Notes under the pieces: model-generated
Database searches by the model: none
Told to the model about the DNA's origin: nothing
The model's input: only the letters and a program-made list of their open reading frames with translations
Shown here: piece by piece, positions 7,739 to 49,733 of the stretch
Layout: each line of letters starts with the position of its first letter
How positions within the stretch are numbered: the stretch's first letter is position 1
Made by a program: the position numbers and the translations under genes
Origin: a phage
Assembly: GCA_014691105.1 (NCBI GenBank)
Contig: GCA_014691105.1_4891.1
Strand: one strand, 5' to 3'
DNA length: 52,976 nt

Positions 7739-7767
7739 TTTACTTACTTCGCGTAACTCGTTATAAT
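7739..7767 (+). promoter_or_regulatory. sigma70-like promoter TTTACT-N17-TATAAT
   Basis: TTTACT at 7739-7744 and TATAAT at 7762-7767, upstream of the terminase genes. Confidence 0.55.
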
Positions 7768-7799
7768 CCCGACTATCCGGATTAACGAGGACGATACCA

Positions 7800-8090
7800 A
7801 TGGCAAAACCGAAAAAAACCCGTGAGGCAACAGAAGAGCTGTTGGCCACTATGCGACGTATCCAACTGGACCCGTTGGAAGTTATGCAACGAGCTATCAT
7901 CCTTGCTGAACGTGAAGACGACTATAAAGCAATGATGGATGGTGCGCTTGGTGTTATGCCGTACATGTATCCTAAGCTGAAAGAGTCCGTTGTTAAAGCT
8001 GACATCGACCAGAACTTGTCTGGCAATGGCGTTAGCCTGAATATTACGATCGGTGACCAGAAAGTGGTAGACGTTACTGAGGAAGAGTAA
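7800..8090 (+). CDS. putative terminase small subunit
   Basis: 96-aa basic/acidic protein immediately upstream of the large terminase; assignment by position only. Confidence 0.45.
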   Translation: MAKPKKTREATEELLATMRRIQLDPLEVMQRAIILAEREDDYKAMMDGALGVMPYMYPKLKESVVKADIDQNLSGNGVSLNITIGDQKVVDVTEEE

Positions 8091-8093
8091 TAA

Positions 8094-9542
8094 ATGAACC
8101 TTGACTTTCACCTGCATGACAGACAAGGTGCCGCTCTGCAGTCTCAGGCAACTGAGATTCTGTACGGTGGCGCCGCTGGTGGTGGTAAGTCTCACCTTAT
8201 GCGTGTAATGTCAATTATCATGTGCTGCATGATACCTGACTTGCAGATTTACCTTTTCCGCCGAAACTATAACGACCTTACGGCTAACCACATGGTTGGT
8301 CCCACAAGTTATCCTGCCTTGCTGGACGGTATGTGCAAAGCTGGCAAGTGCAAGATTAACTACTCGAGCAACACGATTAAATTCTGGAACGGTGCGAACA
8401 TCAAACTCTGTCACCTCCAGTACGAAAAAGATATTTATACCTACCAGGGTGCGGAGATTCACGTTCTGCTGATGGATGAGCTTACTCACTTCACAGAAAC
8501 GATGTACCGCTTCTTGCGTAACCGTGTCCGACTCGGTGCTCTTAAAGTCCCTGAGAACTTTTTCCGGCCACTGCCACTCATCTTTTGTGGGTCAAACCCC
8601 GGTGGTGTTGGTCACAACTGGGTCAAGCGTACTTTCGTAACTGCTGCTCCTCCGATGAAAATCGTTAAGCAAGATAAACGCGAAGGTGGTATGGCGCGTC
8701 AGTACATTCCGGCTAAGATGACTGATAACCCTACGCTGATGGAAAACGATCCTGACTACGGTGACCGTCTTGAAGGTCTTGGTGACCCGGCTCTTGTTGC
8801 TGCTATGAAAGAGGGTGACTGGGATATTGTTGCTGGTGGTGCGCTTGACGACGTATGGTCAACCAAGTGTATTCTGCCTCGTATGCGTATTCCAAAAGGC
8901 TGGACTATCGAACGTTCTCTTGACTGGGGTTCTACTCACCCGTTCTCTGTTGGTATCTGGGCTATTGCAAATGGCGCTTCGCTTACAGACGACGAAGGCA
9001 ATGAGTACTTTATTCCGCGTGGTTCAATTATACGTATAGCTGAATGGTATGGGTGCTCTGAAAAAGAAGCTAACAGGGGTATTAAGCTATCTGCTGCCGA
9101 AGTCGCTCAAGGTGTTCTTCGCCTACAGGAAAATCTGCAGGCTGGTGGCTGGATTCAAAGCAACGTTAATCCTGGTCCGGCGGATAGTCAGATTTATGCG
9201 TGCAAGGAAAAAGACGTTGAGACTATCGCGAAGAAAATGGAAGACGAAGGCGTAACCTGGGTCAAGGCCGACAAGTCACAAGGTTCGAGAATAAATGGCT
9301 TAGAGCTATTCCGTCAGCTTCTGAAAAATGTTAAGATGGACGAAACGGAAAAGCCGGGCATTTATTTCATGGAAAACTGTCCAGCAGCCATAAACACGTT
9401 GCCGGTTCTGCCGCGTGACAAGAACAACACGGAAGATGTCGACACGAACTCTGAAGACCACGTATACGATGATTGTCGTTACATGGTGTTGCGTGGCATC
9501 AACCGTTATACTACCAAGCTCAAAATAAATATGGGACGGTAA
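8094..9542 (+). CDS. terL: terminase large subunit
   Basis: Walker A GGAAGGGKSH, Walker B-like VLLMDELTH, C-terminal nuclease-like region; followed directly by the portal gene. Confidence 0.85.
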   Translation: MNLDFHLHDRQGAALQSQATEILYGGAAGGGKSHLMRVMSIIMCCMIPDLQIYLFRRNYNDLTANHMVGPTSYPALLDGMCKAGKCKINYSSNTIKFWNGANIKLCHLQYEKDIYTYQGAEIHVLLMDELTHFTETMYRFLRNRVRLGALKVPENFFRPLPLIFCGSNPGGVGHNWVKRTFVTAAPPMKIVKQDKREGGMARQYIPAKMTDNPTLMENDPDYGDRLEGLGDPALVAAMKEGDWDIVAGGALDDVWSTKCILPRMRIPKGWTIERSLDWGSTHPFSVGIWAIANGASLTDDEGNEYFIPRGSIIRIAEWYGCSEKEANRGIKLSAAEVAQGVLRLQENLQAGGWIQSNVNPGPADSQIYACKEKDVETIAKKMEDEGVTWVKADKSQGSRINGLELFRQLLKNVKMDETEKPGIYFMENCPAAINTLPVLPRDKNNTEDVDTNSEDHVYDDCRYMVLRGINRYTTKLKINMGR

Positions 9543-9543
9543 A

Positions 9544-11106: not shown

Positions 11107-11111
11107 AGCTA

Positions 11112-11140
11112 TTTACTTTCGGTTTACCTGGCTATATAAT
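11112..11140 (+). promoter_or_regulatory. sigma70-like promoter TTTACT-N17-TATAAT
   Basis: TTTACT 11112-11117, TATAAT 11135-11140; a long hairpin (11152..11217) follows at the predicted transcript 5' end. Confidence 0.55.
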
Positions 11141-11283
11141 CCTTCATGTCAACCGCGCAACAGCCGGCCACGAGAGTCTGCAGGGCTCAGTGGATTTCGG
11201 ATGGCTGGCTGCGCGGTTTGACCCAAACCTGTTCGGAGCCCACTTGAGTGGATTGAGCCCCTCTCATATAGGATTGTAAAATT

Positions 11284-11997: not shown

Positions 11998-12000
11998 GTT

Positions 12001-12978: not shown

Positions 12979-13000
12979 CCCACAAACGGGACTAACAAAA

Positions 13001-13030
13001 GGCGAGCTGACGAGCTCGCCTTTTTTATTT
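13001..13030 (+). terminator. rho-independent terminator
   Basis: 8-bp stem GGCGAGCT/AGCTCGCC with GACG loop followed by TTTTTTATTT. Confidence 0.75.
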
Positions 13031-13056
13031 ACACGTATAAAGTTCTGGTATATAAT
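13028..13056 (+). promoter_or_regulatory. sigma70-like promoter TTTACA-N17-TATAAT
   Basis: TTTACA 13028-13033, TATAAT 13051-13056, then GGAGG RBS before the 13083 start. Confidence 0.55.
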
Positions 13057-18479: not shown

Positions 18480-18485
18480 CCACTA

Positions 18486-18514
18486 TTTACTTAACCGAGG
18501 CGCCAGCCTATAAT
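18486..18514 (+). promoter_or_regulatory. sigma70-like promoter TTTACT-N17-TATAAT with flanking palindrome
   Basis: TTTACT 18486-18491, TATAAT 18509-18514; the -10 lies between inverted repeats GCGCCAGC and GCTGGCGC. Confidence 0.5.
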
Positions 18515-32754: not shown

Positions 32755-32774
32755 CGCTTGAGTCGTGCTATAAT
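32746..32774 (+). promoter_or_regulatory. promoter-like element with TATAAT -10 upstream of the lysis cassette
   Basis: TATAAT at 32769-32774; weak -35 TTTCTT at 17-bp spacing. Confidence 0.4.
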
Positions 32775-34114: not shown

Positions 34115-34339
34115 TTAGCGTTTTCCTTTCAGCTCGTTATACTGCGCACATGCAGCACACAGCACTGTACCGGGTAAAAGCTGACGTCGTTTTTCTTCAA
34201 TGTCTTCCCCACACTGGTAGCACGTCAGCGGGCTTACTCCGGTGTATCTTACTCGGTTCGATAGTGCTGCGTCCCGGGCAACTTGTTCAGCTTCAGAAGC
34301 CATATCAGTAATGTCCGATGTGCGCATAGTCTCAATCAT
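34115..34339 (-). CDS. TraR/DksA-family C4 zinc-finger protein
   Basis: CYQC...x17...CAAC zinc-ribbon motif near the C-terminus; 74 aa. Confidence 0.65.
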   Translation of the reverse strand: MIETMRTSDITDMASEAEQVARDAALSNRVRYTGVSPLTCYQCGEDIEEKRRQLLPGTVLCAACAQYNELKGKR

Positions 34340-34614: not shown

Positions 34615-34629
34615 ATTATAGACCTTTAA

Positions 34630-37592: not shown

Positions 37593-37622
37593 AGTATAAC
37601 GGGGCCTAAGCCCCGCTCCATC

Positions 37623-39100: not shown

Positions 39101-39485
39101 TTCGTAACTCCTTACAAACAGTTTCGATAAACTTACGTTTAATTTCTGTAGACCAGATAATATGACGAGCCTGTTCTAAAGTGTCCCAACGTTCTTTACC
39201 CACAGGAAAGGGAACAATGAAAAGGCCGGTACGGGATATGCGCTTGATAAACGGGAATTTACAGCGCATGGTTGTTTCAAACTTGATAAAGTTTGTTTGC
39301 ACATCACGTGTAAACTTGACCTTATCAAATTCATGCTCAAGAGTTTGAGCAATGTTGCATACTTCCTGGAAAGAAGATGCAGGCAAGTAATCTTCGCGGC
39401 CGACGGTGTTCACGTAGTCGATTTGGCCTTCTAGCCGAAGTATCCAAATCCTGTAATAAGCTTCAGCAACACGTTGTAGATTCAT
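39087..39485 (-). CDS. hypothetical protein
   Basis: ORF track; preceded on the minus strand by a promoter and RBS. Confidence 0.5.
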   Translation of the reverse strand: MNLQRVAEAYYRIWILRLEGQIDYVNTVGREDYLPASSFQEVCNIAQTLEHEFDKVKFTRDVQTNFIKFETTMRCKFPFIKRISRTGLFIVPFPVGKERWDTLEQARHIIWSTEIKRKFIETVCKELRNAIQ

Positions 39486-39511
39486 TGTATCTCTCCTCTA
39501 AAAGATAACTT

Positions 39512-39540
39512 ATTATACCACATCACTCTCTAGTGGTAAA
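39512..39540 (-). promoter_or_regulatory. sigma70-like promoter TTTACC-N17-TATAAT (minus strand)
   Basis: Minus-strand TTTACC (plus 39535-39540) and TATAAT (plus 39512-39517), 17-bp spacer, then GAGGAGAG RBS and ATG at 39485. Confidence 0.55.
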
Positions 39541-39560
39541 GCACTTTTTACGCTTCTGGT

Positions 39561-39594
39561 AAAAATAAAAAGGACCAGCGTTAACTGGCCCTTT
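39561..39594 (-). terminator. rho-independent terminator (minus strand)
   Basis: Minus-strand hairpin GGGCCAG TTAACG CTGGTCC followed by TTTTTATTTTT. Confidence 0.65.
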
Positions 39595-39855
39595 TGGCAG
39601 GGTGGCGTAAGGAGATACAAGGCATCGTAACTATGCAACCAGGCAGCGCATATGAGATTGGCCAAAAGATTTACCATTTTAATCCCCGCGACGAGACGAA
39701 AAAGGAGGTGTCATCGAGTAGCCAATCACATATGCGTTACTTGCTGTGTGCTCTCACCGCGGAAAGTATAGAGCGTTGCACTTATCACACCGATGGAGTG
39801 GCAAAAGCACACAGCAAGTACAACCTTAGTTGTGGTGTCTTAGCACCTGAGTTAT

Positions 39856-39864
39856 TGTGGATAA
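39856..39864 (-). promoter_or_regulatory. consensus DnaA box (TTATCCACA) in a long non-coding region
   Basis: Plus strand reads TGTGGATAA at 39856-39864; a single perfect 9-mer. Confidence 0.3.
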
Positions 39865-40163
39865 CCTGCACCCGACGGGTGTCAAAAAGATACGCCAAAA
39901 CACCACAACTAAAATTGTGACCGCCGTCTACACCAGGCGCCTGGGGTCAAGGTAGCGAGCCAATACCCTTTTCAGCGTCGGAGGAATCGAACCTCACACA
40001 TCACGGCTTTTACCAAATCTCGGTCAGCGAGCAGAATTGAACTGCATTCACTGGACACCCTCACTGTTTCAACACACCAGGCTTAATTGATTGTTGATAA
40101 GAAGAGAGATGTAAGGATGTCCATTGAATGCACCTCCGTAGAGGTGCGTTCAGATCAGCGCTA

Positions 40164-40691
40164 TTATTCAGCAGCTTCTTCGTTGTCGCCTTCGATCGCG
40201 CCAGCCAGTTTAGCAGCTTCAGCTTTAGCAGCTTCTGCTTTCTGGCGAGCTTTTTCAGCTTTCTCTTCAGCTTTGCGAATCTGCTCAGCAGCTTTCGCTT
40301 CGGCTTTTTCAGCTTTGATGCGAGCACGCTCTTCAGCTTTACGCTGTTTTTCAGCGGCTTTAGCAGCATCGCGTTCTGCTTTAGCGGTATCAACACGCTT
40401 AGCCAGAACTTTACCAGTGGCTTTACGCCAGTAGGTCAGCTGGGAAGAAACAGTACCACGGGACATTTCGGTAGTGGCAACAACTTCGTCCATAACGTCA
40501 GAGCTGGACTTGCCTTCTTCATGGGCTTTATCAGCCAGGTCCCATACGTAACGTGCGCCAGTACCAGCTGCTGGATACAGTACGCCGTTAACTTCTTCTT
40601 TACCAGTTACAAAAGTCAGTTTCTCGCTCATAATTTTTTCCTCGTCTACAGGGCTTAATGTTTGTTCGTTACGTGAGTTAATATACGTCAT
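40164..40691 (-). CDS. KfrA-like DNA-binding protein with Ala/Lys/Glu-rich coiled-coil tail
   Basis: N-terminal SRGTVSSQLTYWRKATG resembles the KfrA N-terminal DNA-binding motif; C-terminus AKAERDAAKAAEKQRKAEERARIKAEKAEAKAAE; likely start at the internal Met near 40631. Confidence 0.4.
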   Translation of the reverse strand: MTYINSRNEQTLSPVDEEKIMSEKLTFVTGKEEVNGVLYPAAGTGARYVWDLADKAHEEGKSSSDVMDEVVATTEMSRGTVSSQLTYWRKATGKVLAKRVDTAKAERDAAKAAEKQRKAEERARIKAEKAEAKAAEQIRKAEEKAEKARQKAEAAKAEAAKLAGAIEGDNEEAAE

Positions 40692-40708
40692 TTAAAAGAG
40701 TGTGTAAA
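40680..40708 (-). promoter_or_regulatory. sigma70-like promoter TTTACA-N17-TATATT (minus strand)
   Basis: Minus-strand TTTACA (plus 40703-40708) and TATATT (plus 40680-40685). Confidence 0.45.
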
Positions 40709-40737
40709 CACCTTTTTTAAACTTTTTTCATTAGTGT

Positions 40738-40959
40738 CTAGAAAGGCACATCATAGTCAAAAAGTTTACATCCGGAAGACAGGACTGCCGGCGGTGGTGT
40801 TTTGCCTCCGGATAACAGGCAACCTCCTGCCTGAAAACTACGGCAGTTTGCACAGCTCATATCCTGCAAGTATATAATAAGCTGTCGGCGAACATGCCGT
40901 GGTAAAGCTTTAGCCTGGGTTGCTACCCGTTCAAATAGTTCTCTGTCATCGAGCGCCAT
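40738..40959 (-). CDS. hypothetical Cys-containing small protein
   Basis: ORF track. Confidence 0.4.
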   Translation of the reverse strand: MALDDRELFERVATQAKALPRHVRRQLIIYLQDMSCANCRSFQAGGCLLSGGKTPPPAVLSSGCKLFDYDVPF

Positions 40960-42616
40960 AGCCGTTTCCCCAGTCGTAGTTCATGATTTGTGGGTAGGGT
41001 CGTTTAATCCATACCTTGATGCGCTTAGGAATAGCCAGCTCACCCTTACGGCGAATAAACTCATCGCATGTTTCAGGCGGTTCTGTTCCTGCAGCATTAC
41101 GCCACCAGGCGTCTGCCATTTGCTTAGCATTACCATGGGCCTCTATATTTACCCATGTTGTATACACTTCCAGGTTTGAGTAGTACACAACCTTTATACT
41201 GTCAGGTCGTCCCTGCTTCTGGAATAAAGAATAGTTTACCAGCGTAACATCTTTATCCACAACACGAAGCTGACCGTTAGTCATTACCTCTTCTTCTGAT
41301 GAAGTGAAGGCAATAGCAGGTCCGTTAACTGTAAACTCAAACTCATGCCCGCACATCGGATATACACCATTCTCGTCCGGCGTACTTCCTTTAGCCGGAT
41401 GCTTACACGTACGGGCTGCATAACCACTTACCTGGTGGCAGATAGGGCACTCTTTACCGCCAGGTGTTTTCTCTGACCGTTTCTTTTTCTTCTTACCAAG
41501 ACGTGGCGGAACAGCCGGGTCATCAATAGGACCAAGGTCAATGGTGTTAGATGTAAAGTCCATGACAAGACAGTCATGCTTACCAGGCGCTGTACGTAAT
41601 CCTCGACCGAGTATCTGCACCCACAAAGCAACTGACGTGGACGGGCGCAAGATGCCGAGCATATCAATCTCAGGATAGTCAAATCCTGTCGTCAATACGT
41701 TTACGTTTACACAGACCCGTGCTCGTCCGCTTGTAAACTCTTCAAGTGCGGCTTCACGTTCTTTCTTTGTAAGACCGCCATGCACAACTACAGTCTGCCA
41801 ACCTCGCAGATTAAACTCGTCTGCTATGTTGTGGGCGTGCTCAACACTTGTGGCAAATACAAGAACGTGGTTCCTGTCTTTACCGTAGTGCATCATCTCA
41901 CGAATAGCCGCGACTGTTATACTATGTTGGTTGGCTACCTTCTCAAGCTCTGACGGGATGTAGTCACCCATCCTTTCACCAACATTACTGGTGTCAATCT
42001 TGGTTAACACTTTCTTGTTGACCAGGCGTGACAGGAAGCCTTCATTTACCAGTCTGGTAAAGGCGTCAGGTGTTGTAAGGTCGTAGCAGATGTCGGTAAA
42101 TATACCACAGTCCAGCAAGTGACCCCCTGCCAAGCGATATGGAGTTGCTGTGAGTCCTGTTACCTTTACCTTAGGATTAAGCTCTTTGAAGTGAGCAATA
42201 ACCTTACGGTATGTTGTTTCAGACTTCTCAGGAACAAGATGGGCTTCGTCAATGAATATAAGATTGAACTTACCTGCTTCTTCCAGGTTCTTAATGATTG
42301 ACTGTACTGATGCTACAACGATACGACCTGAAAAGTCTTTGTGTCCTGCACCTGAAGAGTAGATTGATACTGGTGCTTGTGGCCAGTGACGAACAATTGC
42401 TTTGGCGTCTTGCTCAACCAGCTCCTTGACGTGAGTCAGTATAAGAATACGCTGACGGGGATAGCTGGTAAGAATATCCTTCATCAGCATACCAAGCACA
42501 GGTGATTTGCCTGAACCTGTTGGCATGACAATAAGTGGATTACCACTATAAGAATTGAAGTACGACCACCAAGCTGTGACCGCTTCTTGTTGATACCAGC
42601 GAGCTTCAAAAGCCAT
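40946..42616 (-). CDS. SF2 DEAD/DEAH-box DNA helicase with C-terminal zinc-ribbon
   Basis: Motif I MPTGSGKS, motif II FIDEAHLV, motif III GLTATP, motif VI QILGRGLR; C-terminal CPICHQ...CKHP...CGHE cysteine cluster. Confidence 0.8.
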   Translation of the reverse strand: MAFEARWYQQEAVTAWWSYFNSYSGNPLIVMPTGSGKSPVLGMLMKDILTSYPRQRILILTHVKELVEQDAKAIVRHWPQAPVSIYSSGAGHKDFSGRIVVASVQSIIKNLEEAGKFNLIFIDEAHLVPEKSETTYRKVIAHFKELNPKVKVTGLTATPYRLAGGHLLDCGIFTDICYDLTTPDAFTRLVNEGFLSRLVNKKVLTKIDTSNVGERMGDYIPSELEKVANQHSITVAAIREMMHYGKDRNHVLVFATSVEHAHNIADEFNLRGWQTVVVHGGLTKKEREAALEEFTSGRARVCVNVNVLTTGFDYPEIDMLGILRPSTSVALWVQILGRGLRTAPGKHDCLVMDFTSNTIDLGPIDDPAVPPRLGKKKKKRSEKTPGGKECPICHQVSGYAARTCKHPAKGSTPDENGVYPMCGHEFEFTVNGPAIAFTSSEEEVMTNGQLRVVDKDVTLVNYSLFQKQGRPDSIKVVYYSNLEVYTTWVNIEAHGNAKQMADAWWRNAAGTEPPETCDEFIRRKGELAIPKRIKVWIKRPYPQIMNYDWGNGYGAR

Positions 42617-42674
42617 TTATCATCTCCTCATTAACTTTATATATTATACCACTTCCTTGTGATAAAGTATACTT

Positions 42675-43553
42675 TTATTTTAAGGAAAGTTTAACGGGCT
42701 TCTCATCCTGTGGGAAGACATCAGCGGGGCGATAATCATCACAAGCTGCTAATTGTTCTTCGATTGTTTCGAGCTCTTTCTGGTGCTTGTTGCAATACCA
42801 CACTTTGCCCTGAAGCGGTTTACTGTAATGGCAGGTTCTGCAGTTCCTGTCAGGCATTGCTCCTTTGTGGCACAAGTGGTGGTACTCACACATTCCTGGC
42901 TTGCACTCCCACCAGATAGGCGATTCAGAAATCTTCGGCATATCCAAACCAGATTCCGCATATACAACAGCCTCCGCTTTACTCAGTTGTATGTCGCTTT
43001 CCAGTAAGTCAATCTCGACCACTTCAAAATACATCTCGTCGGTGTTCTTGTTGATTGCAATATACACAGCTTGGTTAAGCTTAAGCTTCCGCATGTATAC
43101 CTGCATCTGGGCGTAGTGTACCGGCTTACTTGCTTTAACAGACTTGAGCTTGACTAACTCTTTAAACGACTTATCGCCATGCGTCTTGAATTCAGCAAGT
43201 GCCCATACGCCTTTGTATTTGATCACACAGTCACAAGACCCAGAGAAGATGCCATTGAATTCATGTATGCGCCATTGCTTACCAGTCTTAGGATTGACGT
43301 CCAGCACTTCGTCACATACTGAACGAAGCCACTTTATAATTCTGCTTTCTTCAAGGTTACCACGTTCAAACAGACGAAGTTGCTTAGCCGTAAACTTCTC
43401 CTTGAACGACCAGTGCAGTACATGCCAAAGATAGCGATAGCAGTTGTGCCCTATCTGCGATGCTCCAAGATGCCCGCGTCGTTCTTCTCTTTCGTGGGCT
43501 TCGACTATCTTGATGTCAATACGTTTCTGCAGGTCGTCAAACGGACTGGACAT
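42675..43553 (-). CDS. PD-(D/E)XK nuclease of the Cas4/RecB-like exonuclease family
   Basis: D...EFK core (CDCVIKYKGVWALAEFKT), QhxxY motif (YAQMQVY) and a C-terminal cysteine cluster; track ORF extends to 43670 but the Met at 43553 is the likely start. Confidence 0.6.
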   Translation of the reverse strand: MSSPFDDLQKRIDIKIVEAHEREERRGHLGASQIGHNCYRYLWHVLHWSFKEKFTAKQLRLFERGNLEESRIIKWLRSVCDEVLDVNPKTGKQWRIHEFNGIFSGSCDCVIKYKGVWALAEFKTHGDKSFKELVKLKSVKASKPVHYAQMQVYMRKLKLNQAVYIAINKNTDEMYFEVVEIDLLESDIQLSKAEAVVYAESGLDMPKISESPIWWECKPGMCEYHHLCHKGAMPDRNCRTCHYSKPLQGKVWYCNKHQKELETIEEQLAACDDYRPADVFPQDEKPVKLSLK

Positions 43554-44022
43554 TGTTAAACTCCTCAACACTGAATTCATCGTACACAATGTTATGTGCC
43601 CACAAATGAGCGACGGCATTTGCCATGCTATCCTTCCATTTGGATTGTGAAGCTGTATGCGCCAATGCAACTACACGTACCAGGCTAAGGTTGGCTATCA
43701 GCATGTCAGCACAATGTTCGCACGGCGGGTAGGTTATGTAGATGGTAACCGGGCCTAAAGAAGGAGTGTCTAACTCCCTCCTTATATTAGCTAAGGTGTT
43801 TATCTCGCTATGAATAGTTAGAGCGTTCTTGAGGCTATTAGGCACTATTCTTATAGAGTCTAACTGCGTAGGCAGACCGTTATATCCAGTGGAAATAATA
43901 CGCTTGTTCTGGTCAACAAGAACGCTACCGACTTGACGTTTCGGGTCCTTCGACCAGCTTGCAACTTCACAAGCTATGCGCATAAACCGCCTGTCCCACT
44001 TGTCCATCTTCTTCTTTTGCAT
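43537..44022 (-). CDS. dCMP deaminase
   Basis: Cytidine/dCMP deaminase zinc motifs HSE (LTIHSEINTL) and PCEHC (YPPCEHCADML). Confidence 0.8.
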   Translation of the reverse strand: MQKKKMDKWDRRFMRIACEVASWSKDPKRQVGSVLVDQNKRIISTGYNGLPTQLDSIRIVPNSLKNALTIHSEINTLANIRRELDTPSLGPVTIYITYPPCEHCADMLIANLSLVRVVALAHTASQSKWKDSMANAVAHLWAHNIVYDEFSVEEFNNVQSV

Positions 44023-44083
44023 GGTAGTCTCCGTATACGAAAATAGGGGCCGAAGCCCCTATTGAATATCTACTCGGCAGGGA

Positions 44084-44629
44084 TTATTCTTCCCAAGGAG
44101 CTGCTGCACCGTCATCAGCACCAGGTGCCGTTGCAGTAGCACTCGCCTTCGTTGAAGTACCCGCACCTGCACCTACTTTCTTCGTCGTCGATGCAGTTGC
44201 TTGAGAATGACCGCCTACTGCAGTAGTTGCTTCAGTTGACGCTTTGTATTCGCGAATATCGTTTTGTGGGTCGTACTCACCGGTCTTGTCGATACGAACA
44301 CCAACTTTACCAGCTACAATACGGTTTTCCAGTAAGTCGGTAGAAGTCAGTTCAACAATACCCAGCGCACGACACAGCGCAGACAGTTTGCGATGACCGA
44401 TTTCAACAGCTTGTGCATTAGGGTTGGAGTAGGTAATCATGTCAAATACAACACGGTTAGCGAACTCACCTTCCTGCACTTTCAGACGCAGGGACAGGTA
44501 AGAACCAGTGCCTGCTTTAGTCGGCTTCAGCTCAACCTCTTCAATCATGAAGTTGTACCAGCCTTTCGGGATCGGGTCAAAAGACTGTTGCGGTTCGACG
44601 GTAGAGCTGTTGAAGTTTAATTCAGCCAT
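44084..44629 (-). CDS. Sak4-associated protein, possible ssDNA-binding protein
   Basis: Adjacent to the Sak4-like ATPase; low-complexity Ala/Thr/Gly acidic tail; family assignment tentative. Confidence 0.35.
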   Translation of the reverse strand: MAELNFNSSTVEPQQSFDPIPKGWYNFMIEEVELKPTKAGTGSYLSLRLKVQEGEFANRVVFDMITYSNPNAQAVEIGHRKLSALCRALGIVELTSTDLLENRIVAGKVGVRIDKTGEYDPQNDIREYKASTEATTAVGGHSQATASTTKKVGAGAGTSTKASATATAPGADDGAAAPWEE

Positions 44630-44736
44630 TGTTTGGTATCCTGTTTAAGTTTAGTTTAATTTCGTTTAACGCTTTACCGGCAGCGTTCGGCCGTGATGCT
44701 TATTATACGCCACTTTTTATCATGGCGTAAACACTT

Positions 44737-45621
44737 TTATTCGCTGGTTCCTTTCTCAGCTTGAGCGGCTTTCTTCGCCATCCAGGCTTGGTGCTTCTCT
44801 TTCGATTCGTCCGAACCGATTTTAGTGAGCTGCACGTTCGGGTCGTCGTTCTGCATCTGTTCTGCAGCTCGACCTGTCAGGAGCAGGTAGCTGTCTGACT
44901 CCGGATGATAGTACCACAGCTGGTAAGGATGATAGCCTTGCAGCTTGTCATAAATCCAGCCCAGGTCTGCAGGTTCACGTGCATCCAGCTCACGACCTGG
45001 TGCGTTACGGCACTTAGCTTCCCATTGGTAGTCAGGCTGGGTCTGAATGTAGCGCTCGCTGTTACCGTTGGCGTCAGGCGCAGTCATACGTAAAGCAAGT
45101 ACCGCATCCATCAGGTACGGCAACTGCTTAGGTAGCTGTTGGCCAGGCATAAGAGGTGAGTACAGCATTGCACCAGTAACCTCGTCCTTGTTCTTCTCAA
45201 GCTTGCACAGGTATGCAACGCTGAAAGGCAAGTCACGGAACTGACGCATGATATACATCATCTTGTCGTTGGTGTTACCATACGCCTGTCGTTTGTCATT
45301 AACCTGTGACTTCTCGTAGTCCAGACAAACTTCAGCCACATCTGACAGCGAATCGAAAATCAGATGCTCATACTTCTGCGCATCCTTACTTTCGGTAAGC
45401 CATTTGTACAGCGCCAGAATGTCGTTGAACGTATTGATTGGTGTAGAGTCGATGTCAGCGTCTGCAATCGACATCAAACCGCCTTCAGCGTTAATGACAA
45501 GAACCTTATCGTGAGGCAAGGTCTTAGCCAGGCTGGTTTTACCAACACCTGATGCGCCGTAAATAGCGACCTTAGGTCGCTTATTTTCTACGGCTTGTTT
45601 AGTAGATACAATCTGAACCAT
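44737..45621 (-). CDS. Sak4-like RecA-fold ATPase (AAA_24-type recombination protein)
   Basis: N-terminal KVAIYGASGVGKTSLAKTL...VLVINAEGG matches the Sak4/AAA_24 Walker A context. Confidence 0.65.
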   Translation of the reverse strand: MVQIVSTKQAVENKRPKVAIYGASGVGKTSLAKTLPHDKVLVINAEGGLMSIADADIDSTPINTFNDILALYKWLTESKDAQKYEHLIFDSLSDVAEVCLDYEKSQVNDKRQAYGNTNDKMMYIMRQFRDLPFSVAYLCKLEKNKDEVTGAMLYSPLMPGQQLPKQLPYLMDAVLALRMTAPDANGNSERYIQTQPDYQWEAKCRNAPGRELDAREPADLGWIYDKLQGYHPYQLWYYHPESDSYLLLTGRAAEQMQNDDPNVQLTKIGSDESKEKHQAWMAKKAAQAEKGTSE

Positions 45622-45890
45622 TAATGATAGTCCTCGTAAAGTGATTCTTCATCGCAGTACATACGATAAAGAGCTTCTTCGGCTTCTTCCAGTGTGTCAA
45701 ACTCCTCGCCACAGACGGAGTATTTTGTGGGTTCATCGAATGACTCGACGATGTGCCAGTCATGATGAATACCGTATGTCCACAAGTCGCAGTCATCTTT
45801 TGCAACAAGCTTACGTGTGGAACGAAATTGTGCTAGAGTGTTGATGCTCATATTCTCTCTCCTCATGTGTATAGAGGTATTATACCCCAC
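45621..45890 (-). CDS. hypothetical protein
   Basis: ORF track. Confidence 0.4.
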   Translation of the reverse strand: MGYNTSIHMRRENMSINTLAQFRSTRKLVAKDDCDLWTYGIHHDWHIVESFDEPTKYSVCGEEFDTLEEAEEALYRMYCDEESLYEDYH

Positions 45891-45911
45891 TTACATGGGG
45901 TAAGTACACTA

Positions 45912-46394
45912 CTATTTTACACTAACAGCTTGACACGATAGCCGCGACAAACCGAGGTTGGCTATAACGCCATCGAGCAATACTCCTGCATGTTCTTCAT
46001 TGTATGCTTCTACCCACAAAGGGATGGTGACGCCTTTCAGATGGTCGCTGTACACGTTGAACCTATATACCTGTTTGTGTGCTTTGTCAACACGTACAAC
46101 AGTAAGGTTACCATCTTCGTAAGGAGGAAGCTCAACGCCTTTCTTGCTCCAGAAGTTACGGAACTCAGCACTATTAACAATGCCGTGCACAACACGCTCA
46201 GTAAGTTCTGTTTTGAGGTCTGCACGTGCCTTTGTACTGATAAAGAAACGGCAAGAGAAGAAAGCATTGACGTTTATCACATCAACCGCGTACACAACGT
46301 TATGCTCTTCAGCGGTTGGTGCTTTATAAACAATGTATTTAGTTTTGAACAGGTCCATAGTACTCTCCAGGGAGGAAGACTGGCGGGCTTGCAC
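45912..46394 (-). CDS. hypothetical protein
   Basis: ORF track. Confidence 0.45.
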   Translation of the reverse strand: MQARQSSSLESTMDLFKTKYIVYKAPTAEEHNVVYAVDVINVNAFFSCRFFISTKARADLKTELTERVVHGIVNSAEFRNFWSKKGVELPPYEDGNLTVVRVDKAHKQVYRFNVYSDHLKGVTIPLWVEAYNEEHAGVLLDGVIANLGLSRLSCQAVSVK

Positions 46395-46406
46395 CCGCCT
46401 AAGTTA

Positions 46407-47312
46407 TTACAGCAGTTCTGCTTTCAGTGCAGCGATACCATCGAGCAGTGCTTTGATGTCCGGGTTAGATGCCGCCAGGTCAGCAACAACTGACTGACGA
46501 CGACGTTCCAGCTCTTTCTCAACTTCCAGATCGAGGCGTGCTGACGCTTCACGCAGTAAGTCTTCAACCTGCTGACGACGCTGATACTTGTTAAAGTCAG
46601 GCACATCAACCAGCCATTTGAGAGTTGCAGTGTTGTAGCCAGAAGTATTGGCTGCACTTACAGACACAACATCAACGAGTTTGGTACCATTCAGCTCCGG
46701 ATAGTTAACATTGCGAACGTCAACAACCGCTTTATCACCTACACTTACTTTGCCGATGTACTTGTAAGTGTACACACGACCATTCGGTTCAAACTTAACA
46801 CCAACAAACTTCAGTTTGTCGTCTGCAATAACTTCTTCCTCAACTTTGAAGTTGATTGCAGTGTTCTTGACAGGTGCAGCCGCTTTGAGCTTAGCAACCA
46901 TGTACTGTTCTGAATGAGACGGACGGCACAGACGGAAGACGTCTTCATTGTACGTCAGCCAGTTACCAGTCTCATCCATGCATGCAATCTGATTAGTGCC
47001 ATCCAGCGAACGAACACCCGGACGATTCTTCTCAACACGATACAGCTTACCTTCTTTCAGGTTAGCATAAGAACGGCGGGCGATACCCCAGTTGTGTTTT
47101 TCAGATTCATACTTAGCGAAACGGTCAACACTGAAGTTCTGCTTCAGACCCCGGTCGTCAATTACCCATAAGTTATCGTAAGCACCGCCGAAAGAACCCA
47201 GGTTGGCATACACTTTGCCCTGCGTCAACAGGGAAGTGTTTCCCTCGTCAACACAGATAACAAAACCCAGAGCTTCGTGTGCTTTACCGCTGCGGTCAAA
47301 TACTGTAGTCAT
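46407..47312 (-). CDS. hypothetical protein (301 aa)
   Basis: ORF track; no recognisable motif. Confidence 0.5.
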   Translation of the reverse strand: MTTVFDRSGKAHEALGFVICVDEGNTSLLTQGKVYANLGSFGGAYDNLWVIDDRGLKQNFSVDRFAKYESEKHNWGIARRSYANLKEGKLYRVEKNRPGVRSLDGTNQIACMDETGNWLTYNEDVFRLCRPSHSEQYMVAKLKAAAPVKNTAINFKVEEEVIADDKLKFVGVKFEPNGRVYTYKYIGKVSVGDKAVVDVRNVNYPELNGTKLVDVVSVSAANTSGYNTATLKWLVDVPDFNKYQRRQQVEDLLREASARLDLEVEKELERRRQSVVADLAASNPDIKALLDGIAALKAELL

Positions 47313-47426
47313 TTCTTGTTTCCTTGTATACCAGTTTGATTGTATGCCAGAGACATTCCCTGCGCATGTGCTTTATTGCTTAACCGTTAAAGACATTATA
47401 TCATTAGTGAGTGGTGACGTACACAT

Positions 47427-47717
47427 TTATTTTAAGGCAGAAGTGCAAATAGCATCACACAAACAATAATGAGCACGGTCGTAGTCTTCAAACAAGAACA
47501 CTTCGCCATTGGCGACAACTTCATTACTGTTGACCTGCAGGCTAATACCTGAATGCAGAAGCACATCCATAGCCTGGTCCTTGTTCTTGTACGGGTCCCA
47601 AATAAGCTGGAAGCCTGACCCACAAAGGAGACACCCCTTGAGCTCCGGAAGAGTTGACTCCTTCACAGTCACATTACAAATCTTAGCCAGTTTAGCACGA
47701 GAATCTAGAGTACTCAT
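47427..47717 (-). CDS. hypothetical protein
   Basis: ORF track. Confidence 0.4.
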   Translation of the reverse strand: MSTLDSRAKLAKICNVTVKESTLPELKGCLLCGSGFQLIWDPYKNKDQAMDVLLHSGISLQVNSNEVVANGEVFLFEDYDRAHYCLCDAICTSALK

Positions 47718-48016
47718 TTACGTTTACCTTTACGTTTGTGTAGCGGAGTATATGTTTTCTTTGGTACGCCAAACATAGCCGCATATGTACCGACTTCTTT
47801 CTTTGTTGGCTTAGCAACAACCTCGTCAAGCACAACGAAGTTACTGTTAAAAGCCCGGTCCATATTGCCAAAGGCTTCGGTTACTCTTTTCTCAACAGGA
47901 GTAAAGTCAATAACCAGCTCTTTGCCTATCAGGCTTTCTTTGAACTTGTCAAATAGCCATTTGTCACGCGGACCAGGATTGCCCATAAACATAACATGCA
48001 TCTGCTTATTGCCCAT
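47714..48016 (-). CDS. hypothetical basic protein
   Basis: ORF track; ATGA coupling with the 47427 gene. Confidence 0.4.
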   Translation of the reverse strand: MGNKQMHVMFMGNPGPRDKWLFDKFKESLIGKELVIDFTPVEKRVTEAFGNMDRAFNSNFVVLDEVVAKPTKKEVGTYAAMFGVPKKTYTPLHKRKGKRK

Positions 48017-48106
48017 GGATGATATACCCCGTTATTTGTGTTGCCAGGTACAAACCGTATACCACACACCCAACTAGTATGGCATCAAGAATCAGATGAG
48101 CTATCT

Positions 48107-48409
48107 TCACGATTGACCCCCAGCCTTGATTGTAACGTTACGGCTGTTAACCACTTCCAGGCTGGTGCCATCCTTTTTGTGGGTTACACGAATAAATGCA
48201 ACACCCTCAGCCTGTGCCTGCTCAATAGCTTTATTCAGCACAACATTATCCTGTACCATATGGCGTACGCGAGGAAGGATATTGCAAAGAGGTTCCATCT
48301 CATCCATTCCTGCAGTACGCATAATTGACTTGAGAATGCCGAGGTGGTGACGGTAACGGTCTTCAACATTATACTTCTTGCCGTTATGCTTTAACATGAA
48401 AGTCTCCAA
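48107..48409 (-). CDS. hypothetical protein
   Basis: ORF track. Confidence 0.4.
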   Translation of the reverse strand: METFMLKHNGKKYNVEDRYRHHLGILKSIMRTAGMDEMEPLCNILPRVRHMVQDNVVLNKAIEQAQAEGVAFIRVTHKKDGTSLEVVNSRNVTIKAGGQS

Positions 48410-48441
48410 AAGTCAGGGGGCTTGTGCTAAGCCCCGTTTAA

Positions 48442-48927
48442 TTACTCGGCTTCTTCCGTAGCTGCCGGGGTGAATGTTACAGTCGGAATACCAGGTGAAG
48501 TCTTAACAACAGGGTCGACGATAGCCAGTTGTTCTGGTGTCAGGTTACGGTATGCAGTAACTGACATTTCATATTTGGTTTTAAACAGCTTGGCAACAAC
48601 AGTCTTCGGTAACTTCTTCATTACGTCAGGCACAAGCTTCTGGTCGAGTGTGCGGTTAACCTTCTGCTCAACCTTGAGCTTACCAGGTACGCCATGCATG
48701 CTGAACTCAACCGTTTGCGTACCTTCTTTACCACGATTGATAATCATGTCACGTTCAAGACGTGCTTTAATGGTCCGGCGCAACGTCTCCTGGTCAGCTT
48801 TAGCTTGTGCCATCCAGCGGTTCAGATTCGCCAGCTTGTCGTACAGCTGTTCCGTGTCCATCGATTCCAGTTCTTGTGGGGTCAGTGCCATCAGTTGTTT
48901 CCTCAGGTTGCATGTGCATAGTTGCAC
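48442..48927 (-). CDS. hypothetical protein
   Basis: ORF track; overlaps the 48800..49162 ORF, so the true start is probably an internal Met (MALTPQEL...). Confidence 0.4.
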   Translation of the reverse strand: MQLCTCNLRKQLMALTPQELESMDTEQLYDKLANLNRWMAQAKADQETLRRTIKARLERDMIINRGKEGTQTVEFSMHGVPGKLKVEQKVNRTLDQKLVPDVMKKLPKTVVAKLFKTKYEMSVTAYRNLTPEQLAIVDPVVKTSPGIPTVTFTPAATEEAE

Positions 48928-49162
48928 CGATCAGTAAGCAATAGTTATTGAACATTGTACGTAGCGCTTGGCCCGCAGCAATATCCGTTACGTCTATTAT
49001 ACCACTTTTAGTGGTGACGCGTAAAGCTTTTTCTTTCTTTGTTTTTTCCACGAATGCAATGCTGATGATTTCTTCCGCATGAATTACGTGGATAGTACCT
49101 GCAAACTCACCAGTCTTAGCTGGTGCCTGGTACACTAACGACATAGACGGTTGGTTACTCAC
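48800..49162 (-). CDS. hypothetical protein
   Basis: ORF track; its C-terminal 40 residues overlap the next ORF. Confidence 0.35.
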   Translation of the reverse strand: MSNQPSMSLVYQAPAKTGEFAGTIHVIHAEEIISIAFVEKTKKEKALRVTTKSGIIDVTDIAAGQALRTMFNNYCLLIGATMHMQPEETTDGTDPTRTGIDGHGTAVRQAGESEPLDGTS

Positions 49163-49172
49163 TTAATTGCTC

Positions 49173-49610
49173 CTATTTATATAAGTCCATCCAGTTACGA
49201 TACTCGTCATAAAACCGGTCAAACTCGTTTTTGGTGAGTGCAATAGCAACACCATTCACCAGGTGCATTGTCCGTGTTTTGATGTTGACATACATGACAT
49301 TGCTGTACGGGAATAAGCTACCGTCATTGTCAGTGAAATAAGTAGGCGTAATATGAAGCGCATCACGCAATGCAACCAGCGATTCAACAGCTTCAGCGTG
49401 CCATTCACGTCTGAAGGTCATGCAAGGCGGTGCACCGTCTTCGTCCTGGGTACCACGCAAAGTAAGGTATACAACTTCGGCAGTATCATTGTGTACAATT
49501 ACGCTAATGTCGACGATGTCGCTGGTACGGAAGGTAACAAAGTGCTCTTCAATTACTTGTTCGTCGGTATTAGGGCTGACGCCCTGAAAGGTCTTGAGTG
49601 TGTGAAACAT
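49173..49610 (-). CDS. hypothetical protein, first gene of the leftward replication block
   Basis: Track ORF extends to 49694 but AAGGAG plus ATG at about 49610 (MFHTLKTF...) is the likely start. Confidence 0.45.
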   Translation of the reverse strand: MFHTLKTFQGVSPNTDEQVIEEHFVTFRTSDIVDISVIVHNDTAEVVYLTLRGTQDEDGAPPCMTFRREWHAEAVESLVALRDALHITPTYFTDNDGSLFPYSNVMYVNIKTRTMHLVNGVAIALTKNEFDRFYDEYRNWMDLYK

Positions 49611-49703
49611 TGGTTGTATCTCCTTAGCAGAATGTACGTTTATTATGTATATAAAGGAGGGGAAAGTAAATAGATATAAATGTATAAAATACATAAAAGT
49701 CTA

Positions 49704-49733
49704 TTTACTCTGGTTTAATAACGTGTATATAAT
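49704..49733 (+). promoter_or_regulatory. sigma70-like promoter TTTACT-N18-TATAAT
   Basis: TTTACT 49704-49709, TATAAT 49728-49733, in a 150-bp AT-rich divergent region. Confidence 0.5.

What the first reader, a model, noticed from the sequence alone, without database searches (positions are those of the whole stretch)
7739..49733. Genome-wide family of near-consensus sigma70 promoters (TTTACN-N17-TATAAT)
Eight nearly identical promoter-like elements precede operons on both strands: 7739, 11112, 13028, 18486, 21352 and 49704 on plus, and 39512..39540 and 40680..40708 on minus. They drive early-type and structural genes alike, and no phage RNA polymerase or sigma factor gene is evident. This implies reliance on host sigma70 holoenzyme for all classes, with any temporal control imposed by small regulators or DNA structure.
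Basis: seen in the sequence. Interest (0 to 1): 0.5.

Follow-up and report, generated by a model that had tools for sequence, protein, structure and literature searches.

The report
Host-type promoters of a Rosemountvirus phage
The window is the genome of a BP63-like Salmonella/E. coli phage. The repeated TTTAC-N17/18-TATAAT elements are real, conserved promoters of the kind read by the host's main RNA polymerase, and they were already annotated in public records of close relatives, so the finding is correct but ordinary.

Summary
All eight listed sites exist. Six fit TTTACN-N17-TATAAT exactly; 40680(-) has TATATT and 49704(+) has an 18-nt spacer. Exact matches number 7 against 0.06 expected by chance.

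Nearly all lie in the 7.7% of the genome that is non-coding, point the same way as the next gene, and sit 26-217 nt upstream of it. They recur at the same positions in four diverged lineages (Loughboroughvirus, KE26/fHy-Eco03, Erwinia phage SOI901).

No sigma factor or RNA polymerase gene was found. The only transcription-related proteins are a TraR/DksA-type zinc finger (gp51) and a Bro-N/Ant-like protein. Reliance on host sigma70 holoenzyme for all gene classes is therefore the best reading.

It is not new. The BP63 RefSeq and S144 GenBank records annotate these promoters, and the S144 paper draws the same conclusion.

Extras I found:
- The -35 box is always T[T/G/A]TAC and never TTGAC.
- Structural-gene promoters have G+C-rich discriminators and replication/early-gene promoters have A+T-rich ones, which parallels phage T5.
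- Several promoters sit inside conserved hairpins whose stems covary.

Transcription start sites remain unmapped.

The parts
7739..7767 (+). Promoter candidate TTTACT-17-TATAAT, 32 nt upstream of gp19 (small-terminase-like), TerL and portal
   Evidence: Exact match. Same boxes at the same distance from the start codon in SE4, S144, SOI901, KE26 and fHy-Eco03.
11112..11140 (+). Promoter candidate TTTACT-17-TATAAT, followed by a 143-nt conserved leader, then the scaffold and major capsid genes
   Evidence: Leader structure.
13028..13056 (+). Promoter candidate TTTACA-17-TATAAT directly after the capsid-gene terminator; drives the head-tail and tail genes gp24-gp29
   Evidence: Annotated as a promoter in BP63 and S144.
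12997..13024 (+). Intrinsic terminator after the major capsid gene; its T-run runs into the -35 box of the next promoter
   Evidence: 12-bp stem plus T-run. The stem covaries and the loop TGACGA is conserved in relatives.
18486..18514 (+). Promoter candidate TTTACT-17-TATAAT upstream of gp30-gp31
   Evidence: Annotated in BP63 and S144.
18500..18524 (+). Conserved 8-bp hairpin/palindrome that holds the -10 box of the 18486 promoter in its loop
   Evidence: 93.8% of cells paired across 6 lineages, 2 pairs changed on both sides, covariation 0.308 against 0.103 in shuffles, reached by 1 of 500 shuffles.
21352..21380 (+). Promoter candidate TTTACT-17-TATAAT upstream of the sheath gene and the long tail/baseplate operon; bracketed by the inverted repeat CTGGCCA...TGGCC(A/G)G
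32766..32774 (+). Extended -10 promoter candidate TGcTATAAT upstream of the holin/lysis cassette, just after a terminator-like hairpin at 32714-32743
   Evidence: GTGCTATAAT is conserved in 8 of 9 genomes and the hairpin stem before it covaries. S144 annotates a promoter there.
39512..39540 (-). Promoter candidate TTTACC-17-TATAAT (TGg extended -10) upstream of gp57...DNA polymerase...gp51; preceded by the terminator at 39568-39595
   Evidence: The spacer is 28/29 identical in SOI901 although gp57 is about 42% identical.
40680..40708 (-). Promoter candidate TTTACA-17-TATATT upstream of gp59, with the A-tract AAAAAAGGTG directly upstream
   Evidence: Orthologs read TGTACA-17-TATACT.
42643..42671 (-). 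Promoter candidate TATACT-17-TATAAT upstream of the helicase gp61. The spacer holds a hairpin (42647-42664) with a conserved loop AWGGAA.
   Evidence: Hairpin 92.7% paired; stem ACCAC/GTGGT, TATCAC/GTGATA or CGCGC/GCGCG in different lineages.
44702..44731 (-). Promoter candidate TTTACG-18-TATAAT upstream of the SSB gene gp64
   Evidence: Annotated in BP63.
45879..45908 (-). Promoter candidate TGTACT-18-TATAAT upstream of gp66-Sak4
47395..47423 (-). Promoter candidate TGTACG-17-TATAAT upstream of gp68
   Evidence: Found in only some lineages, some with CATAAT.
48996..49025 (-). Promoter candidate TTTACG-18-TATAAT (TGg) 104 nt upstream of gp72, inside the annotated gp73
   Evidence: Conserved in 6 other genomes.
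49642..49670 (-). Promoter candidate TTTACT-17-CATAAT upstream of gp74; one half of a mirror-image divergent pair
49704..49733 (+). Promoter candidate TTTACT-18-TATAAT upstream of gp75 and the primase; the other half of the divergent pair
4376..4404 (-). Promoter candidate TGTACA-17-TATAAT, 217 nt upstream of gp13, at the head of the small early-gene cluster
4901..4929 (+). Promoter candidate TGTACT-17-TATCAT with AAAAAGTGG upstream; 50 nt before gp14 (nucleotide-metabolism operon)
   Evidence: PWM score 14.3. Conserved in SE4, S144, SOI901 and KE26.
1881..1909 (-). Exact TTTACC-17-TATAAT inside the 3' end of gp06, 86 nt before gp05; lineage-specific and doubtful
   Evidence: Absent from SE4, S144, SOI901, KE26 and fHy-Eco03.
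6043..6071 (+). TGTACA-17-TATAAT inside gp15 coding sequence, 56 nt before gp16; doubtful
   Evidence: Lost in SOI901 and KE26; its conservation can be explained by the coding sequence.
34115..34339 (-). gp51, a 74-aa TraR/DksA-family zinc-finger protein; candidate RNA-polymerase-binding regulator
   Evidence: Pfam zf-dksA_traR 35.2 bits. PHROG 54. PDB TraR 6n57_M E=1.3e-6. Has D9xxD12xA14, KRR at 50-52 and four Cys, read against the family features in PMC9239242.

Best explanation
The window is a complete Rosemountvirus genome (a BP63-like myovirus of Salmonella/E. coli). The repeated elements are sigma70-type promoters with a -35 box T[T/G/A]TAC-N, a 17-18 nt spacer and a -10 box TATAAT. This is essentially the lacUV5 pattern, TTTACA...TATAAT. 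About 17-19 of them split the genome into transcription units: five to six for structural and lysis genes on the + strand, and a dozen for early, nucleotide-metabolism and replication genes. The phage has no RNA polymerase or sigma gene of its own, so host sigma70 holoenzyme most likely transcribes every gene class. Shown here: the motif, its statistical excess, its placement and orientation, its conservation in diverged relatives, and the absence of detectable polymerase or sigma genes. Inferred: that the host enzyme starts transcription there, and how timing is set. My best guess for timing is a T5-like scheme. In it the promoter classes differ in flanking features: G+C-rich discriminators on structural-gene promoters; A+T-rich discriminators and upstream A-tracts on early/replication promoters. 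Polymerase-binding phage proteins such as the TraR-like gp51 would then shift the balance between the classes.
For: Genome identity: 98% to phages CF2 and BP63. Motif excess: 7 exact matches against 0.06 expected, and 15 within one mismatch against 1.09. Ten TTTAC-N17/18-TATAAT sites but zero TTGAC-N15-20-TATAAT, although TTTAC (186) and TTGAC (192) are equally common in the genome. Placement: 14 of 17 sites are wholly non-coding in a genome that is 7.7% non-coding; all are co-oriented and 26-217 nt upstream of a start codon; 13 of 23 intergenic gaps of 40 nt or more hold one. Conservation: 8-10 TTTAC and 11-15 TNTAC sites in each of BP63, SE4, KE26 and SOI901, upstream of the orthologous genes, and again zero TTGAC versions. 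Per-promoter ortholog tables show the hexamers kept while the spacers change. No sigma or RNA polymerase in Pfam or PHROG scans. BP63 RefSeq and S144 GenBank annotate promoters at the same places, and the S144 paper reaches the same conclusion. Class difference: discriminator G+C is 0.70 for structural-gene promoters against 0.32 for the rest, Mann-Whitney p=0.007, and p=0.003 when averaged over lineages. In T5 all three classes use sigma70 holoenzyme and early and late promoters differ mainly in the discriminator (PMC7472727). gp51 carries the TraR-family features.
Against: There is no 5'-end mapping, RNA-seq or in vitro transcription for any member of this phage group, so promoter activity and timing are untested. 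The position weight matrix was trained on the same sites it ranks. Orthologous sites were located with the motif itself, so the 85-98% hexamer identity is partly by construction. 'Early' and 'late' are assigned from gene function, not from measured timing, and the discriminator contrast was noticed after the fact on 5 against 12 promoters. G at position 3 of the -35 box, one of the best-conserved sigma70 contacts, is never present. Many small phage proteins have no detectable family and could include an unrecognised sigma-like or sigma-remodelling factor. gp51 scores below the NCBIfam TraR cut-off (52.7 against 59.7 bits).
Confidence: 0.8

Rival explanations
1. The elements are sigma70 promoters, but the structural-gene ones are not sufficient by themselves. 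Late transcription would need a phage factor that acts on the polymerase or on the promoter DNA, for example the TraR-like gp51, a T5 gp026-like binder, or a protein or DNA conformation acting on the conserved hairpins. In that case 'host holoenzyme for all classes' is true only with phage-made modifiers.
For: Structural-gene promoters differ as a class: G+C-rich discriminators (TATAAT-CC in three of them) and no A-tract. Conserved, covarying inverted repeats enclose the -10 box at 18486 and the whole promoter at 21352. A TraR-family gene ends the replication operon. T5 offers a precedent.
Against: The structural-gene promoters have the best sigma70 matches in the genome (TTTAC[A/T]-17-TATAAT), which is what activator-independent promoters look like. 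Known activator-dependent phage late promoters (Mu, P2, T4) lack a -35 box. No operator-like sequence is shared among the five sites. By published TraR/DksA behaviour, G+C-rich discriminators tend to be inhibited rather than activated.
Confidence: 0.3
2. A phage-encoded but unrecognised sigma-like or sigma-remodelling protein reads T-N-T-A-C as its own upstream element, as T4 MotA/AsiA do with the MotA box. The family would then be phage-specific rather than plain sigma70 promoters.
For: The upstream box has an unusual information profile: positions 1, 3, 4 and 5 are invariant (T, T, A, C) and position 2 is free. G at position 3 is absent from every site in five genomes, while TTGAC-N17/18-TATAAT never occurs. 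About 30 small proteins have no assigned function.
Against: TTTACA with TATAAT is the well-known lacUV5 arrangement read by plain sigma70 holoenzyme (my own knowledge). The same box precedes the genes that must be transcribed first, before any phage protein exists. No sigma, AsiA or MotA family was detected. The spacing is the sigma70 optimum.
Confidence: 0.07
3. The matches are a by-product of A+T-rich intergenic DNA, or of RNA/DNA hairpins and terminators, and are not promoters.
For: Half of all TATAAT hexamers (22 of 45) touch non-coding DNA. Several sites overlap conserved hairpins or terminators.
Against: Dinucleotide-preserving shuffles give 0.06 exact matches against 7 observed. The two boxes keep a fixed 17-18 nt distance and the gene's orientation. 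They stay invariant in relatives while the spacer and flanks drift. Hairpin sequences differ from site to site, whereas the boxes do not.
Confidence: 0.02

Closest known systems
Annotated promoters of Salmonella phage BP63 (NC_031250.1) and phage S144 (MT663719.1; PMC7432712)
   Same: These are the same elements at orthologous positions. BP63 lists 'promoter, similar to TTGACA(N15-18)TATAAT with 2 bp mismatch' at the sites equal to window 13028, 18486, 39512, 40680, 42643 and 44702. S144 lists predicted promoters before the same genes. The S144 paper states that no RNA polymerase gene is present, that host polymerase is used, and that a DksA-type protein may control later genes.
   Different: Those annotations are software predictions mixed with many weaker hits. 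They omit several members (for example BP63 lacks 7739, 11112, 21352 and 49704). They do not note the invariant T at -35 position 3, the class-specific discriminators, or the hairpins.
lacUV5-type sigma70 promoter (TTTACA-N18-TATAAT)
   Same: Same -35 variant (T instead of G at position 3) with a consensus -10 box; activator-independent and read by sigma70 holoenzyme (my own knowledge of the lacUV5 sequence).
   Different: Most phage sites have the optimal 17-nt spacer. Many early ones add an upstream A-tract.
Phage T5 promoters (all temporal classes read by sigma70 holoenzyme)
   Same: A lytic phage without its own polymerase or sigma factor. Strong sigma70-type promoters precede pre-early, early and late genes alike. 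Early and late promoters differ mainly in the discriminator, which is A+T-rich (ATATT) in early ones (PMC7472727). Here early/replication promoters are also A+T-rich after the -10 box and structural-gene promoters are G+C-rich.
   Different: There is no evidence here for two-step DNA entry. No homolog of T5 gp026 was looked for. Timing classes here are inferred, not measured.
Phage T4 early promoters (UP / -35 / TGn / -10)
   Same: A-rich upstream tract, consensus -10 box and very good overall match to host elements (PMC2988021). From memory, the T4 early -35 consensus is GTTTAC, which would match the G-T[T/G]TAC of the early/replication promoters here. I could not verify this.
   Different: Only 3-4 of about 19 sites have TGn. 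T4 late genes use a phage sigma (gp55) and promoters without a -35 box, whereas here structural genes have full -35/-10 promoters.

Membership tests
sigma70 (-35/-10) bacterial promoter | -10 hexamer close to TATAAT | tested here: met
   TATAAT is exact in 15 of the 17 core sites; the others are TATATT and CATAAT. P4901 has TATCAT.
sigma70 (-35/-10) bacterial promoter | -35 hexamer close to TTGACA | tested here: met
   4-5 of 6 positions match (TTTACA, TTTACT, TGTACA and so on). The G at position 3 is never present in any site of five genomes.
sigma70 (-35/-10) bacterial promoter | Spacer of 17 +/- 1 nt between the hexamers | tested here: met
   Eleven T-N-TAC sites have 17 nt and four have 18 nt; none has 15 or 16.
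sigma70 (-35/-10) bacterial promoter | Located upstream of, and co-oriented with, transcription units | tested here: met
   All 17 are co-oriented and 26-217 nt from a start codon; 14 are wholly intergenic.
sigma70 (-35/-10) bacterial promoter | Transcription starts 6-9 nt downstream of the -10 box; open complex forms with sigma70 holoenzyme | not testable with these tools
   No 5'-end or in vitro data were found for Rosemountvirus or Loughboroughvirus.
T4-early-type promoter (UP / -35 / TGn / -10) | A/T-rich UP-like tract upstream of -35 | tested here: inconclusive
   A-tracts such as AAAAAGTG or AAAATAAAAG lie directly upstream of -35 in most minus-strand promoters but not in the structural-gene ones. 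No binding test is possible.
T4-early-type promoter (UP / -35 / TGn / -10) | TGn extended -10 | tested here: not met
   Only 39512, 42643, 48996 and the lysis promoter at 32766 have TGn.
T5-like scheme (all classes sigma70; classes differ in discriminator) | sigma70-type promoters before early and late genes; no phage sigma or polymerase | tested here: met
T5-like scheme (all classes sigma70; classes differ in discriminator) | Class-specific discriminator sequence | tested here: inconclusive
   G+C is 0.70 against 0.32, p=0.007. The classes are inferred from gene function and the contrast was noticed after the fact.
Single-subunit (T7-like) or virion RNA polymerase promoters | A contiguous conserved block of about 20 bp, and a phage RNA polymerase gene | tested here: not met
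   Only two hexamers are conserved and the spacers are unrelated. No polymerase gene was found.
TraR/DksA family (gp51) | C4 zinc finger, N-terminal DxxDxA motif, and basic pair equivalent to TraR R48/R49 | tested here: met
   gp51 has C40xxC43...C61xxC64, D9-I-T-D12-M-A14 and K50-R51-R52, aligned to TraR EARRK. The features are as listed in PMC9239242.
TraR/DksA family (gp51) | Score above the curated family cut-off; binding to the RNA polymerase secondary channel | tested here: inconclusive
   Pfam zf-dksA_traR scores 35.2, above its 24.9 cut-off. NCBIfam TIGR02419 scores 52.7, below its 59.7 cut-off. Binding is not testable here.

The most novel reading that the evidence does not exclude
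Timing in this phage group would be written into otherwise near-consensus sigma70 promoters. Structural-gene promoters would be set apart by G+C-rich discriminators (TATAAT-CC...) and by conserved, covarying hairpins that hold the -10 box (18486) or the whole promoter (21352) in a loop. They would be switched on or off through promoter-kinetics effects of the TraR-like gp51, or through DNA structure, rather than by an activator or a new sigma factor. The invariant T at -35 position 3 would be part of that tuning.
Probability: 0.15. Interest if true: 0.5.

Novelty: already known. Interest (0 to 1): 0.2.

Why it matters
As stated, the finding adds little. Predicted host-type promoters, the lack of a phage polymerase and a possible DksA-type regulator are already in the public records and in one paper for this phage group. 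Its practical value is a cleaner, conservation-filtered promoter map of about 19 sites, with doubtful ones flagged, for a genus widely used in Salmonella/E. coli biocontrol cocktails. If the class-specific discriminators and promoter-embedded hairpins prove functional, the group would be a compact second model, beside T5, for how a phage orders its genes in time using only host sigma70 holoenzyme. That question is still unresolved for T5.

Tried and rejected
1. A shared operator in the spacers. CACT-N2-8-AGTG is not enriched (13 against 8.7 expected), and the palindromes differ from site to site.

2. General masking of ribosome-binding sites in read-through RNA, relieved in promoter-initiated RNA (as for the T4 lysozyme gene). 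The Shine-Dalgarno sequence is less accessible in the longer RNA at several sites. With shuffled upstream segments as control, the effect is significant only at 42643 in 3 of 4 lineages and at 7739 in 2 of 4. I rejected it as a general rule.

3. Known RNA families and tRNAs. There are no Rfam hits at E<=1 and no tRNAs.

4. IMG/VR relatives of the helicase. Only 5 close loci came back and the rest are about 40% identical phages of other groups, so they were not useful for footprinting.

5. Verifying the T4 early -35 consensus. The review's figure is not held and the T4 genome review is not in the library, so that comparison rests on memory.

6. Sites 1881 and 6043 are exact or near-exact matches, but they lie in coding DNA and are not kept in diverged relatives. 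I treat them as doubtful.


Full report
**What the window is.** A 7-kb stretch is 98% identical to Escherichia phage CF2 and Salmonella phage BP63, genus Rosemountvirus. All 76 BP63 proteins map onto the window in the same order, offset by about 404 nt. The layout is:
- a cluster of small genes on the minus strand (1076-4158);
- an 821-nt non-coding gap;
- a plus-strand nucleotide-metabolism operon (4980-7622);
- the plus-strand packaging, head, tail and lysis genes (7800-34099);
- the minus-strand replication genes (34115-49610);
- a short plus-strand unit, gp75-primase (49764-52605).

**The observation.** With one mismatch allowed it occurs 15 times against 1.09.
- 40680(-) has TATATT.
- 49704(+) has an 18-nt spacer.

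A weight matrix built from the 17 sites scores them all at 16.5 or more, and the next genomic hit scores 14.8. This is circular, but the gap is clear. Fourteen of the 17 lie wholly in the 7.7% of the genome that is non-coding. All are co-oriented with a gene start 26-217 nt downstream. Thirteen of 23 intergenic gaps of 40 nt or more hold a member.

Two further conserved candidates came from looking at the remaining gaps. One is TGTACT-17-TATCAT at 4901(+), before gp14. The other is an extended -10 site, TGcTATAAT, at 32766-32774(+), before the holin gene and directly after a terminator-like hairpin.

**Conservation.** I assembled BP63, SE4, ZCSE2 and S144 (Loughboroughvirus), KE26, fHy-Eco03 and an IMG/VR contig, and Erwinia phage SOI901.
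- Each of the four complete relatives scanned (BP63, SE4, SOI901, KE26) has 8-10 TTTAC-N17/18-TATAAT sites and 11-15 T-N-TAC versions. They precede the orthologous genes even where the flanking proteins are 40-85% identical.
- For the five structural-gene promoters, the boxes sit at the same distance (within 2 nt) from the start codon in nearly every lineage where an ortholog was found, while the spacers differ.
- Sites 1881 and 6043 lie in coding DNA and are not kept in the diverged lineages. I regard them as doubtful.

**A peculiarity of the -35 box.** TTGAC-N15-20-TATAAT never occurs in the window, and TTGAC-N17/18-TATAAT never occurs in any of the five genomes. Yet TTGAC (192 copies) is as common as TTTAC (186). 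The box reads T, any base, T, A, C. TTTACA with TATAAT is the lacUV5 arrangement, which plain sigma70 holoenzyme reads (my own knowledge). So this does not argue against sigma70, but the uniform choice is unexplained.

**No phage polymerase or sigma factor.** Pfam and PHROG scans of 38 unannotated proteins were run as linker-joined concatenates; the Serglycin hits are linker artefacts. They found no sigma or RNA polymerase domain. The only transcription-related hits are:
- a Bro-N/Ant-like protein (ORF 70-651);
- gp51, a 74-residue TraR/DksA zinc finger.

gp51 aligns with F-plasmid TraR from the RNA polymerase complexes in the PDB (6n57_M, E=1.3e-6). It carries the DxxDxA motif (D9-I-T-D12-M-A14), the basic pair and the four cysteines that PMC9239242 lists as functionally important. 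It falls short of the NCBIfam TraR cut-off (52.7 against 59.7 bits).

**Prior knowledge.** The BP63 RefSeq record already carries 'promoter, similar to TTGACA(N15-18)TATAAT' features at the sites equal to window 13028, 18486, 39512, 40680, 42643 and 44702. The S144 record annotates promoters before the same genes. The S144 paper says that no RNA polymerase gene is present, that host polymerase is used, that 18 promoters were predicted in all clusters, and that the DksA-type protein may control later genes (PMC7432712). I found no transcriptome or 5'-end study of the group.

**Differences between promoter classes.**
- The five structural-gene promoters are all TTTAC[A/T]-17-TATAAT and lack an upstream A-tract. 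Their discriminators are G+C-rich: CCCGAC, CCTTCA, CGGACT, AAGCTG and GGCCGG. The lysis promoter has CCACTC.
- The early, metabolism and replication promoters often have an A-tract plus G directly before the -35 box (AAAAAGTG-T[T/G]TAC), a 17- or 18-nt spacer, and A+T-rich discriminators.
- Discriminator G+C is 0.70 against 0.32 (Mann-Whitney p=0.007; p=0.003 after averaging over lineages).

This contrast was noticed after the fact, and the classes come from gene function rather than timing. It does parallel T5, where all classes use sigma70 holoenzyme and early and late promoters differ mainly in the discriminator (PMC7472727). TraR-type proteins act according to promoter kinetics, without binding DNA (PMC9239242 abstract). 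That makes gp51 a reasonable, untested candidate for shifting the balance between classes.

**Structures overlapping the promoters.**
- The -10 box of the 18486 promoter sits in the loop of an 8-bp hairpin (18500-18524). The stem reads GCGCCAGC/GCTGGCGC here, TGCCAGC/GCTGGCA in KE26, GTGCCTGC/GCAGGCAC in fHy-Eco03 and AGCCAG/CTGGCT in SOI901. Across lineages 93.8% of cells pair, two pairs change on both sides, and the covariation score is 0.308 against 0.103 in shuffles (reached by 1 of 500).
- The spacer of the 42643 promoter holds a hairpin with a conserved loop, AWGGAA. Its stem is ACCAC/GTGGT, TATCAC/GTGATA or CGCGC/GCGCG in different lineages.
- The 21352 promoter is bracketed by CTGGCCA...TGGCC(A/G)G.
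- The 13028, 39512 and lysis promoters follow intrinsic terminators whose stems covary.

I tested whether such structures mask ribosome-binding sites in read-through RNA and free them in promoter-initiated RNA. Against shuffled-upstream controls the effect holds only at 42643 (3 of 4 lineages) and at 7739 (2 of 4), so it is not a general mechanism. What the hairpins do is open. Possibilities are 3'-end protection of upstream messages, weak termination, or a DNA-level effect on promoter opening.

**Verdict.** The elements are genuine and conserved. They are best read as host sigma70 promoters serving all gene classes (confidence about 0.8). The family has roughly 19 members rather than eight. 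The finding repeats what public annotation and one paper already state, so its interest is low. The class-specific discriminators, the invariant T in the -35 box, the promoter-embedded hairpins and the TraR-like protein are leads for how timing is achieved. None is demonstrated.

Noticed in passing
window 11141-11283: The 143-nt leader between the 11112 promoter and the scaffold gene is more conserved than the flanking proteins. It folds into a long imperfect hairpin (consensus -46 kcal/mol, 29 pairs in the main stem, one pair changed on both sides). No Rfam family matches. It could be a processing or stability element for the scaffold/capsid message.
   Followed up: partly
window 18500-18524: A conserved, covarying 8-bp hairpin has the -10 box of the 18486 promoter in its loop. 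Transcripts started at that promoter would lack the 5' arm. Function unknown.
   Followed up: yes
window 42647-42664 (minus strand): A hairpin inside the spacer of the helicase promoter, with a conserved loop AWGGAA. Its stem is completely replaced (CGCGC/GCGCG) in Erwinia phage SOI901.
   Followed up: yes
window 39512-39540 (minus strand): The spacer of this promoter (ACTAGAGAGTGATGTGG) is 28/29 identical in SOI901 although the downstream protein gp57 is only about 42% identical. This looks like sequence rather than structure conservation, so it may be a protein-binding site.
   Followed up: no
window 4159-4979: An 821-nt non-coding gap lies between the divergent early and metabolism clusters. 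It holds two to three copies of a repeat unit about 105-177 nt apart (CGGCAGGGGTTA at 4519, 4696 and 4801; AGGAGCCGGCGAAATTATTTAT at 4555 and 4731) and a tandem TGCAAGTTT pair at 4414/4424. It could be an origin, small RNAs or a regulatory region.
   Followed up: partly
window 4170-4231 (leader of gp13, minus strand): A long hairpin with 29-nt arms lies just upstream of gp13. The inner stem GTGGCTA.../...TAGCCAC changes to GTGACTA/TAGTCAC and GAGACTA/TAGTCTC in relatives, which are compensatory changes seen by eye.
   Followed up: partly
window 1817-1855, 2470-2512, about 3780-3813, 3106-3172: The intergenic gaps of the small early-gene cluster lack family promoters. Instead they carry a repeated palindromic element, TTCAAYMATGA...TCATGATTGAA (14 matches to the half-site against 4.3 expected genome-wide, with the perfect ones clustered here). 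It recalls the stem-loop cassettes between early genes of T4-type phages.
   Followed up: partly
window 70-651: An ORF of 193 codons with a Bro-N / anti-repressor (Ant)-like domain (Pfam 45.5 bits). It is not annotated in BP63, apparently because that linear record starts inside it. Relatives have a shorter gap at this position.
   Followed up: partly
window 39513-39677 and 39678-40163: The ORF annotated as gp58 in BP63 lies over a terminator and a promoter and is probably not a gene. The next 490 nt or so have no annotated gene here, whereas Erwinia phage SOI901 carries tRNA-Gln and tRNA-Pro at the corresponding place. No tRNA is found in the window.
   Followed up: partly
L081 (fHy-Eco03) 46302-50000; corresponds roughly to window 52.7 kb through about 3.7 kb: The fHy-Eco03 record annotates a 3.7-kb terminal direct repeat covering the resolvase and the small early genes. 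This suggests where the physical genome ends of this phage group lie and which genes enter the cell first.
   Followed up: no
window 49665-49709: The two divergent promoters (49642 minus, 49704 plus) form a 21-nt imperfect inverted repeat. Their -35 boxes are 33 bp apart, around an A+T-rich palindromic centre (GTATAAAATAC). This arrangement is kept in relatives.
   Followed up: partly
window 34085-34109: A bidirectional terminator (AAAGGGGCC...GGCCCCTTT) sits between the convergent lysis operon and the TraR-like gene gp51, overlapping the end of gp50.
   Followed up: partly
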